Part shown: piece by piece, positions 3,194-5,171 of the stretch
Numbering within the stretch: position 1 is the stretch's first letter
Layout: every line of letters begins with the position of its first letter
Translations under genes and position numbers: made by a program
IMG/VR virus record: IMGVR_UViG_2623620416_000002
Location: 1-41,252 of that record
Source: a virus
Taxonomy: Duplodnaviria; Heunggongvirae; Uroviricota; Caudoviricetes
Direction: 5' to 3' (one strand)
Length of the DNA stretch: 41,252 nt
The notes under the pieces: generated by a model
Databases searched by the model: none
What the model was told of the DNA's origin: nothing
The model's input: only the letters and a program-made list of their open reading frames with translations

Positions 3194-3484
3194 ATGAAAA
3201 TTCATTTAGCTACACTTAAAGCAGAACTAAAAGTTCTTGCAATCGAAATCAGAACATTAAAATCAAAACGCAAAGAGATGCGTGGATACGTACCTGGATT
3301 GAGCTCTGCTCAAGAACAGTTTCGCATTAAACATATTGCTCGTTGCCTTCTTCGCGGAAGAACACTAGAGCAGATAGAGCCAAAGCTTCGCGATCCAAAC
3401 AGCTATCATCATGCATACATTCGCAAACAAGCTGCAAAGATTGTTGCTGCTGCACTGGAGGTAGAGAATGCAGCCCAGCCATAA
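3194..3484 (+). CDS. Hypothetical basic protein, 96 aa
   Basis: GGAG SD upstream; contains RIKHIARCLLRGRTLEQIE; overlaps the Pth2-like gene. Confidence 0.7.
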   Translation: MKIHLATLKAELKVLAIEIRTLKSKRKEMRGYVPGLSSAQEQFRIKHIARCLLRGRTLEQIEPKLRDPNSYHHAYIRKQAAKIVAAALEVENAAQP

Positions 3485-3764
3485 ACTCTACATCCTCGTT
3501 GATAAAAGACTCAACCCATCGCAGCGAGCTGTTCAAGCATGCCATGTTGGAATTGAGTTCGCAAAGAAGTATCCAGAGTGGAAACACCAGTCGGTTGTCA
3601 TACTCGGGTGCGACGGAGAGATGGAGCTCATCGATAAGGCCGCTGAATTCCTTTTTGCGGGCTTATCGTTTACAACGTTTTCTGAAACGTATTGGAATAA
3701 CCGCATCACTGCGGTCGCCGTACACGGAGCAGACGAAATGTTAAAGGAGTTATCCTTGATTTAA
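3468..3764 (+). CDS. Peptidyl-tRNA hydrolase II (Pth2)-like protein
   Basis: KLYILVDKRLNPSQRAVQACH resembles the Pth2 N-terminal motif; SVVIL and the C-terminal F.E...TAVAV fit the fold; adjacent to tRNAs. Confidence 0.65.
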   Translation: MQPSHKLYILVDKRLNPSQRAVQACHVGIEFAKKYPEWKHQSVVILGCDGEMELIDKAAEFLFAGLSFTTFSETYWNNRITAVAVHGADEMLKELSLI

Positions 3765-3766
3765 TA

Positions 3767-3773
3767 GTATAAT
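3767..3773 (+). promoter_or_regulatory. -10 box GTATAAT driving the RNA island
   Basis: TATAAT at 3768-3773, immediately before the structured RNA at 3778. Confidence 0.7.
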
Positions 3774-3777
3774 GTAA

Positions 3778-3955
3778 GTGCACGGCCGCGTAAACGGAGG
3801 GTGATTCCGGATAGAGGGTTGTAAAGAGTTTTACGACGTTCTTCCCTTGATTTGTTGCCCACCTGCTAGTACCTATGCCGGAGTCGTTGGTGTCACAGCC
3901 TCATCTCGCAAGAGACGGTGGTTACAAAGTGTGACAATAATCTAGCCCGTGCACC
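3778..3955 (+). ncRNA. Uncharacterised ~180-nt structured RNA
   Basis: Closing stem GTGCACGG (3778-85)/CCGTGCAC (3947-54). Internal stems GATTCCGG-ATAG/CTAT-G-CCGGAGTC, GTTGTAAA/TTTACGAC, TGTCAC/GTGACA and TCTC-GCAA-GAGA (GNRA loop). Several G-U pairs; own promoter; no ORF. Confidence 0.65.
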
Positions 3956-3966
3956 TTTTCTTCTAT

Positions 3967-4134
3967 GCCCGAGTATGCTCAGTGGTAGAGTGCTCAACTT
4001 GGAATAAATTATAGTCGTCAGAAGTGATCAACTGCAATATAATTTGTTCAGCTTAAAAAGCTCACATGACGGTGGGAGTTAGTATAAGTACTAAATAGCT
4101 TGAGAGGACGGTGGTTCGAATCCATCCTCGGGCT
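3967..4134 (+). tRNA. tRNA (probably Pro, TGG) interrupted by a ~95-nt insertion in the anticodon loop
   Basis: Acceptor GCCCGAG/CTCGGGC, D arm GCTC-AGTGGTA-GAGT, anticodon stem CTCAA (3993-97)/TTGAG (4100-04), T arm GGTGG-TTCGAAT-CCATC. Loop CTTGGAA is followed by extra sequence 4005-4099. No encoded CCA; one extra nt between the acceptor and D stems. Confidence 0.75.
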
Positions 4135-4152
4135 CTAACTTAAGGAGAAAAT

Positions 4153-4458: not shown

Positions 4459-4534
4459 GCTCCGTTAGCTCAGTGGTCAGAGCAGTCGTCTCTAAAACGT
4501 ACGGTCAGGGGTTCGAATCCCTTACGGAGCTCCA
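4459..4534 (+). tRNA. Amber suppressor tRNA (anticodon CTA)
   Basis: GCTCCGT/ACGGAGC acceptor, GCTC/GAGC D stem, loop CT-CTA-AA (anticodon 4492-94), T arm AGGGG-TTCGAAT-CCCTT, discriminator T and encoded CCA. The anticodon stem has only 3 Watson-Crick pairs. Confidence 0.88.
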
Positions 4535-4872: not shown

Positions 4873-5098
4873 AACCCTTTAGAAAACCGGGAAGGGCCCA
4901 GGTCTACTCTTCCTTAAAGGGTTTTTCTTACTTGCCGCGCGCGGCTCTCGCTCGCGAGTGCGTGCTCTGCACGCACGTAGAGTAAGTAAGAGTTCGAAAC
5001 GAAGACCTTTGGTCTTCGTTGCGGGGCTGGTGTAAAATCTGATTTGTTCTGGTTAGCTAGGTTAGCCAGGGGGAATCTAGAGAAATTTATACCCGCGA
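4871..5098. repeat. Cluster of inverted repeats/hairpins in a GC-rich non-coding island (candidate origin or structured RNA)
   Basis: AAAACCCTTTA/TAAAGGGTTTT (4871-4925), TCTTACTT/AAGTAAGA, palindrome GCCGCGCGCGGC (4934-45), TGCGTGC-TCT-GCACGCA (4959-75), AACGAAGACC-TTT-GGTCTTCGTT (4998-5020) and CTGGTTAGC-TAG-GTTAGCCAG (5049-69) within a longer imperfect stem to 5098. Confidence 0.75.
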
Positions 5099-5158
5099 CA
5101 ATGGCATTTTTAACTCAGTTCAGAAAATAAATTTTCACCACCAAGAAACCCCAAAACA

Positions 5159-5165
5159 GTATAAT
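5159..5165 (+). promoter_or_regulatory. -10 box GTATAAT, leaderless geometry
   Basis: TATAAT at 5160-5165, 6 nt before ATG 5172. Confidence 0.7.
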
Positions 5166-5171
5166 CACGCC

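What the first reader, a model, noticed from the sequence alone, without database searches (positions are those of the whole stretch)
3967..4134. tRNA split by a 95-nt structured insertion in the anticodon loop that fits neither known intron class
Seen: both halves form a canonical cloverleaf if 95 nt are removed from the loop. The insert is structured: AAATTATA/TATAATTT (4006-13/4038-45), TTAGTA-TAAG-TACTAA (4079-94), CTCAC/GTGGG, and a possible pseudoknot TCGTCA (4015-20)/TGACGG (4067-72). It is too short for a typical group I intron and lacks a bulge-helix-bulge. The splice register sets the anticodon: TGG (Pro) if cut after nt 36-38, TGA if after 35, and TTA (ochre suppressor) if after 34. 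The acceptor identity (G1-C72, U73) is not typical of Pro. Inference: a novel small intron or ribozyme, a tRNA-derived ncRNA, or a decayed tRNA.
Basis: partly seen in the sequence, partly recalled or inferred. Interest (0 to 1): 0.75.

Follow-up and report, generated by a model that had tools for sequence, protein, structure and literature searches.

The report
Phage tRNA shell carrying structured RNA
A bacteriophage keeps the whole outer body of a transfer RNA but replaces its decoding loop with a conserved, folded 95-base domain tipped by two self-pairing loops; it looks like a natural 'tRNA scaffold' carrying a new RNA that may stick to copies of itself, rather than a tRNA interrupted by an intron.

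Summary
The element is real (3967-4137, + strand): a tRNA body with 95 extra bases in the anticodon loop. Four distinct homologues in related ~170-kb phages keep the shell (82-100% identical) while the insert drifts to ~50%, yet it keeps one fold with many compensatory changes. That fold is a three-way junction. One arm ends in a 6-base palindrome; the other has a loop-E-like motif and an invariant GACG tetraloop. Both loop types are known kissing (dimer) motifs. Splicing is unlikely: no register gives one amino acid, the closest relative reads UGA instead of UGG, position 33 is C in 2 of 5 and covaries as a base pair, and no ligase or endonuclease was found in a complete relative. A sister RNA at this locus has its insert in the D-loop, again with palindromic tips. 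Best reading: an unspliced, tRNA-shelled, probably self-assembling phage RNA beside a CUA-tRNA/PTH2-like cassette; its job is untested. Closest known: T4 RNAC/RNAD and engineered tRNA scaffolds. The scan has noted this broad class on other phage DNA, but not this family.

The parts
3967..4137 (+). Type-A tRNA-shelled ncRNA, whole gene including N73 and the 3' trinucleotide (CUA here, CCA in homologues)
3967..3973 (+). Acceptor stem 5' strand (pairs with 4127-4133); identity not fixed across homologues (1-72 is G-C, C-G or G-U; N73 is U or A)
3977..3991 (+). D arm (D stem invariant, G18-G19 kept); one extra base at 3976 before it
3993..4000 (+). Anticodon stem 5' strand plus positions 32-34, which extend the helix by pairing with 4096-4098 (33:132 is U-A in three and C-G in two sequences)
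4002..4049 (+). Insert arm P1 (4002-4013 with 4038-4049; 10 of 12 pairs with compensatory change)
4025..4030 (+). Six-base palindrome UGAUCA at the tip of P1, flanked by purines (candidate kissing loop)
   Evidence: analogy with HIV DIS, PMC7357161
4051..4089 (+). Insert arm P3: helix 4051-55/4085-89, loop-E-like internal loop 4056-58/4081-84 (inferred from sequence), helix 4059-67/4072-80
4068..4071 (+). Invariant GACG tetraloop capping P3 (candidate second kissing loop)
   Evidence: MoMuLV/MoMuSV analogy, PMC7357161
4090..4095 (+). A-rich junction strand of the three-way junction (last three A invariant)
4096..4133 (+). Anticodon stem 3' strand, 5-nt variable loop, T arm (4110-4126) and acceptor 3' strand
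3766..3773 (+). Conserved -10-like element in front of the RNA cassette; no matching -35, and not called by the promoter scan
3778..3954 (+). Neighbouring type-C structured RNA (~177 nt, ends paired), conserved but not obligately linked to type A
3194..3484 (+). 96-aa all-helical cassette protein of no known family
3468..3764 (+). PTH2-like gene (weak Pfam PF01981 and PDB matches)
4459..4534 (+). tRNA with CUA (amber-reading) anticodon, part of the same cassette

Best explanation
This is an unspliced phage non-coding RNA that uses a complete tRNA body as a shell. Shown by comparison: the acceptor, D and T arms and the elbow bases are kept, and the anticodon stem continues into a three-way junction with two long arms. 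Inferred step 1: it is co-transcribed with the cassette and matured like a tRNA (RNase P at the 5' end, 3' trimming and CCA), which makes it stable, as in engineered tRNA scaffolds. Inferred step 2: it cannot decode, because positions 32-36 are tied up in helices. Inferred step 3: the palindromic P1 tip and the GACG tip pair with the same loops of other copies, giving dimers or larger rings or chains that display several tRNA-like ends and loop-E-like protein sites. Inferred step 4, the weakest: such multimers act as a multivalent decoy or scaffold for tRNA-binding proteins (host tRNA-targeting defence enzymes, or the neighbouring PTH2-like and 96-aa proteins), immune to anticodon nucleases. 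My odds: unspliced structured ncRNA about 0.8; self-assembly about 0.5; decoy role about 0.25.
For: Five distinct sequences: shell 82-100% identical, insert 45-60% between distant pairs. 89.6% of cells are paired and 26 of 50 pairs are compensatory; slid controls give 35-44% paired. RNAalifold predicts the same fold. The 33:132 pair is U-A or C-G, and no splice register gives a single amino acid. No RtcB, Rnl2-type ligase or tRNA endonuclease in a relative scored 100% complete (controls rang). The P1 tip holds a perfect 6-mer palindrome in 4 of 5 sequences (UGAUCA three times, UCUAGA once) and a G-U version in the fifth. All 8 sister type-B RNAs have one (UGUACA or CUGCAG), against a background of 1.5% per position. 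GACG is invariant. Both motifs are documented homodimer interfaces (PMC7357161). Acceptor identity is not conserved in A or B.
Against: There are only five related sequences, and the structure was derived from them, so the shuffle counts are not probabilities. No expression or dimer data exist. Four of five sequences still read NGG (Pro) at 34-36, and one (L016) would splice at 36/37 to a textbook tRNA-Pro (C1-G72, A73, U33, G37). The palindrome observation was made post hoc, and the L093 loop is 13 nt long, so a palindrome there is less surprising. Related phages lack type A altogether (L013, L017, L107), so it is dispensable.
Confidence: 0.55

Rival explanations
1. A monomeric, unspliced tRNA-shelled RNA: the arms bind a protein (for example the cassette's PTH2-like or 96-aa protein, or a ribosomal or defence factor) through the loop-E-like motif and the GACG loop, and the palindromes are incidental.
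For: Invariant unpaired bases cluster in the internal loop, the GACG loop and the A-rich junction. The RNA always lies in the cassette, and other tRNA shells with different inserts lie beside PTH2-like genes in unrelated phages (L136, L172, L155).
Against: Four different perfect palindromes are kept at arm tips in types A and B. The cassette proteins occur in most loci without any such RNA.
Confidence: 0.22
2. A new kind of small tRNA intron, removed at 36/37 to 38/39 by an unknown host or phage enzyme or by self-splicing, to give tRNA-Pro.
For: The shell is more conserved than the insert. NGG occurs in 4 of 5 sequences. With a cut at 36/37, position 37 is a purine in all five and L016 becomes a canonical tRNA-Pro(CGG). 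No other tRNA-Pro was found on contig C305.
Against: L091, whose shell is 100% identical to the window's, would give UGA (Ser) without a long variable arm. C33 occurs in 2 of 5 and covaries as a pair. There is no constant terminal G or 5' U-G site, no BHB, no Rfam intron match even at E 10, and no ligase or endonuclease.
Confidence: 0.13
3. The insert is an unrecognised self-cleaving ribozyme or processing element that cuts the tRNA shell into halves.
For: Compact, covarying junction with invariant unpaired nucleotides; tRNA-associated ribozymes occur in phages (theta ribozymes, from my own knowledge).
Against: No match to any Rfam ribozyme. No conserved pseudoknot. The hammerhead-like and hairpin-ribozyme-like words seen by eye are not conserved in the right order.
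Confidence: 0.07
4. A decayed tRNA gene with a random insertion.
For: This copy ends in CUA rather than CCA; the insert alone folds no better than shuffles.
Against: Extensive compensatory change in all insert helices over about 50% divergence.
Confidence: 0.03

Closest known systems
Phage T4 RNAC and RNAD (species 1 and 2 stable RNAs)
   Same: Non-decoding RNAs of 120-140 nt in a phage tRNA cluster. RNAC has a canonical T arm at its 3' end. Function unknown (PMC9697503).
   Different: RNAC shows no D arm or anticodon stem in its fold, while this RNA keeps the whole shell. Model R1 does not hit RNAC or RNAD, so no homology is shown.
Engineered tRNA scaffold (Ponchon and Dardel; described in PMC3753655)
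   Same: Same architecture: acceptor, D and T arms kept and a foreign RNA inserted at the anticodon stem, which gives processing and protection.
   Different: That system is artificial. Here the design is natural and under selection, and the cargo is of unknown function.
Retroviral dimerisation loops: HIV-1 DIS (6-nt palindrome) and MoMuLV/MoMuSV GACG tetraloops
   Same: Purine-flanked 6-nt palindrome in an apical loop, and a GACG tetraloop (PMC7357161).
   Different: Motif-level analogy only; no homology, and dimerisation was not tested here.
GOLLD and ROOL RNAs
   Same: Phage-associated structured RNAs near tRNA arrays that form multimers through kissing loops and palindromes (PMC12990946).
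   Different: Those are much larger (from my own knowledge, several hundred nt) and are in Rfam; no match here. This RNA is about 170 nt and built on a tRNA shell.
Group I introns in bacterial tRNA anticodon loops; archaeal and eukaryotic BHB-type tRNA introns
   Same: Position: an insertion in the anticodon loop of an otherwise intact tRNA.
   Different: No catalytic core, terminal G or BHB; anticodon not conserved; no splicing enzymes found.

Membership tests
Functional decoding tRNA (after splicing) | Cloverleaf shell with conserved D- and T-loop elbow bases | tested here: met
Functional decoding tRNA (after splicing) | One amino-acid specificity, with U33 and purine 37, in some splice register across homologues | tested here: not met
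   best registers give Pro four times and Ser once; C33 in 2 of 5
Functional decoding tRNA (after splicing) | Conserved tRNA-Pro acceptor identity (C1-G72, A73) | tested here: not met
   C1-G72 in 1 of 5, A73 in 3 of 5
Functional decoding tRNA (after splicing) | Spliced, aminoacylated product in vivo | not testable with these tools
   needs tRNA-seq and charging assays
Group I intron | P3-P9 core with P7 guanosine site (Rfam match) | tested here: not met
   no match at E up to 10 in the window or E up to 1 in homologues; the conserved fold is a three-way junction
Group I intron | Constant terminal G and a U-G pair at the 5' splice site | tested here: not met
   terminal base varies in every register that keeps NGG
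BHB or protein-spliced tRNA intron | 3-nt bulge, 4-bp helix, 3-nt bulge at the exon-intron junction | tested here: not met
   0-1-nt bulge, 3-bp helix, then a three-way junction
BHB or protein-spliced tRNA intron | Splicing endonuclease and RNA ligase available | tested here: inconclusive
   None in G000 or in a complete relative; the Rnl1 search had no positive control; the true host is unknown
T4 RNAC/RNAD-like stable RNAs | Non-decoding RNA with a tRNA-like 3' half, encoded among phage tRNA genes | tested here: met
   (non-decoding is inferred from comparison)
T4 RNAC/RNAD-like stable RNAs | Sequence or structure homology to RNAC/RNAD | tested here: not met
   model R1 hits only true tRNAs in the T4 locus
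Kissing-loop homodimeric RNAs | Self-complementary apical loop kept under sequence change | tested here: met
   four different 6-mer palindromes in types A and B; invariant GACG
Kissing-loop homodimeric RNAs | Loop-dependent dimer or multimer formation | not testable with these tools
   needs native gels, mass photometry or cryo-EM
Known self-cleaving ribozymes and riboswitches (Rfam) | Match to a family covariance model | tested here: not met

The most novel reading that the evidence does not exclude
Phages use tRNA bodies as interchangeable natural scaffolds for self-assembling RNA domains, placed in the anticodon loop (type A) or the D loop (type B). Type A has two independent self-kissing loops and so builds RNA-only multimers that display many tRNA ends and act as a multivalent decoy or organiser for tRNA-directed proteins during infection.
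Probability: 0.25. Interest if true: 0.85.

Novelty: new variant of a known kind. Interest (0 to 1): 0.62.

Why it matters
T4's tRNA-like RNAC and RNAD are still listed as of unknown function. This family gives a compact, covariation-defined model with sharp, testable features: two predicted kissing loops, a loop-E-like site, and a natural counterpart of the engineered tRNA scaffold. If it self-assembles, it would be a small natural RNA-only multimer and a candidate phage counter-defence device. It is also a practical warning: annotation tools call these genes intron-containing tRNA-Pro, -Asn, -Leu or -Thr, which inflates reports of phage tRNA introns.

Tried and rejected
BLASTN and TBLASTN against 50,697 annotated phage records found only short matches to ordinary tRNAs and nothing for the 96-aa protein; the best hit was a normal tRNA-Met. 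Pattern scans for the insert outside its shell gave only the three known contigs plus chance matches, judged by eye or from the model search, so there is no sign that the insert is mobile. The 96-aa protein was not found in 200 relatives of the binned genome. That genome's RecA looks Bacteroidota-like by my reading, while the phage uses Shine-Dalgarno sites and TATAAT elements, so the bin may not be the host. Pairing of the GACG loop with the CUA tRNA's anticodon stem was rejected (L002 lacks the complement). Pairing with type C was rejected as obligate (L093 has no type C). Hammerhead, hairpin-ribozyme, group III intron and guanidine-II resemblances were considered by eye and dropped: motifs are not conserved or are in the wrong register. 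Amber gating of the PTH2-like gene is not seen in this clade: the ATG has its own GGAGG and the upstream TAG is not conserved. The fold search for the 96-aa protein found no match. An early note of a full -35/-10 promoter was wrong: only the -10 element is there. Literature searches found no description of this family, but the library is incomplete.

Full report
Observation. The window is the first 41 kb of a 146.7-kb phage-like contig (38% GC) binned in a 43%-GC genome. Rfam's tRNA model matches 3967-4134 at 45.3 bits with a large insertion, and ARAGORN with intron search calls it tRNA-Pro with a 95-nt intron. Single-sequence folding is weak evidence (z -1.99 for the gene, -0.84 for the insert), so homologues were needed.

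Homologues. Pattern scans and neighbour-gene look-ups gave four further distinct copies in related phages: L002 (same as L003 and L004), L016, L091 and L093. The shells are 82-100% identical. The inserts are 45-60% identical between distant pairs and 87% between the window and L091. The region between positions 31 and 39 is 90-102 nt long.

Structure. RNAalifold and my hand-built model agree. The anticodon stem continues past a 0-1-nt bulge through positions 32-34, which pair with the insert's 3' end; pair 33:132 is U-A in three sequences and C-G in two. A three-way junction follows. Arm P1 (4002-4049) has compensatory changes in 10 of 12 pairs. Arm P3 (4051-4089) has a covarying basal helix, an internal loop with (G/A)AA opposite AGUA (loop-E-like, inferred from sequence), a covarying upper helix and an invariant GACG tetraloop. 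Overall 89.6% of cells pair and 26 of 50 pairs are compensatory, against 35-44% paired in slid controls. With five related sequences these counts are strong but are not probabilities.

Intron or not. No splice register gives one amino acid in all five sequences. The best registers give Pro four times and Ser once, and the exception is L091, whose shell is identical to the window's. Position 33 is C in two copies. The 1-72 pair and N73 vary. There is no BHB, no constant terminal G and no Rfam intron or ribozyme match. RtcB, Rnl2-type ligase and tRNA endonuclease are absent from the bin and from a 175-kb relative scored 100% complete; the Rnl1 search had no positive control, and the real host is unknown. 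What keeps the intron idea alive is NGG in four of five copies and a textbook tRNA-Pro(CGG) in L016 if cut at 36/37. I read this as probable tRNA-Pro ancestry and leave about 0.13 for splicing.

Self-pairing tips. The P1 tip carries a perfect 6-nt palindrome in four copies (UGAUCA three times, UCUAGA once) and a G-U version in the fifth. In the window it is purine-flanked, like the HIV-1 DIS. GACG tetraloops form kissing dimers in MoMuLV and MoMuSV (PMC7357161). At the same locus other relatives carry a sister RNA, type B (eight sequences). It is a tRNA shell with a D-loop insert and an enlarged anticodon loop, 99.7% paired with 17 compensatory pairs, and its arm tip is always a palindrome (UGUACA or CUGCAG). 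Seven of eight end in CCC rather than CCA. Four different palindromes against a 1.5% background per position suggest selection for self-complementarity, although the pattern was noticed post hoc.

Context. The RNA lies in a cassette of a 96-aa helical protein (confident model, no fold match), a PTH2-like gene (weak Pfam and PDB hits) and a CUA-anticodon tRNA. Of 60 PTH2-like loci fetched (a few redundant), 48 have a CUA tRNA within 2.5 kb. A third conserved RNA, type C (3778-3954), lies directly upstream behind a conserved -10 element. Types A, B and C come and go independently: L093 has A without C, L005 has B without C, L013 and L107 have only C, and L017 has none that I could see. Other tRNA shells with unrelated inserts lie beside PTH2-like genes in distant phages (L136, L172, L155).

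Mechanism. Shown: conserved shell and conserved insert fold. Inferred from established tRNA processing and from the engineered scaffold (PMC3753655): host enzymes mature the shell and protect the cargo. Inferred: no decoding. Inferred with about even odds: dimers or multimers through the two loops. Speculative: a multivalent decoy or scaffold for tRNA-binding proteins. The main rival is a monomeric protein-binding RNA.

Comparison and novelty. It resembles an engineered tRNA scaffold in architecture and belongs conceptually with T4 RNAC and RNAD, which are of unknown function (PMC9697503). It is not homologous to them and keeps the D arm and anticodon stem that RNAC lacks. It fails the membership tests for group I and BHB introns. 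It is absent from Rfam, and I found no paper describing it. Earlier notes of this scan report the broad class of tRNA-shaped phage RNAs with inserts on other DNA; they are unchecked and are not counted as support. A sequence look-up found no look-alike of this RNA in other genomes. Verdict: a real, conserved, new variant of a poorly understood kind; interest 0.62.

Noticed in passing
window 3778-3954; alignment A5: Type-C RNA: ~160-185 nt, ends paired, 16 of 30 predicted pairs compensatory in 12 sequences, no Rfam match; deserves its own study.
   Followed up: partly
L005:6607-6755, L010:5422-5569, L011:6577-6725, L012, L103-L106: Type-B sister RNA: tRNA shell with D-loop insert (palindromic tip, loop-E-like internal loop, a copy of the UCUAAAA word of the CUA tRNA loop) and a ~22-nt structured anticodon loop; 7 of 8 end in CCC.
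   Followed up: partly
window 4459-4534 and homologues: The CUA tRNAs of this clade mostly have one bulged base in the 3' strand of the anticodon stem; some share type A's extra base before the D stem (L010, L014). TAG is an ordinary stop on this contig (21 of 133 long ORFs).
   Followed up: partly
window 3194-3764; L114-L173: The 96-aa protein, PTH2-like gene and CUA tRNA form a widespread cassette (48 of 60 PTH2-like loci have the tRNA). The two genes are fused in L020, and L023's PTH2-like ORF ends early at a TAG. The lysine of the usual Pth2 GK-x-x-x-Q motif appears to be replaced by Q (motif recalled from memory).
   Followed up: partly
L014:6592-6680: A further small RNA at the same slot, with paired ends, a GCCA 3' end, a T-arm-like hairpin and two UGUACA palindromes.
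   Followed up: no
L136:3248-3419, L172:2847-2973, L155:2033-2178, L163:4634-4763: Other long tRNA-shelled RNAs with unrelated inserts near PTH2-like genes in distant phages.
   Followed up: partly
G000 contig C305, around 88790-88870 (minus strand) and 104310-104382 (minus strand): Outside the window: a tRNA-like gene missed by ARAGORN, with a long variable region, and a tRNA with a shortened anticodon loop called Val(AAC).
   Followed up: no
L101:6995-7325: A long insertion in what may be a split tRNA-like gene in an unrelated phage, with words that resemble a group I intron 3' end; unrelated to type A.
   Followed up: no
window 4880-5170: Conserved non-coding stretch with GC-rich inverted repeats before the dUTPase gene, kept in relatives; possibly an origin or a regulatory element.
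   Followed up: no
G000 as a whole: The bin's RecA looks Bacteroidota-like, whereas the phage uses Shine-Dalgarno sites and TATAAT elements; the contig may be mis-binned.
   Followed up: partly
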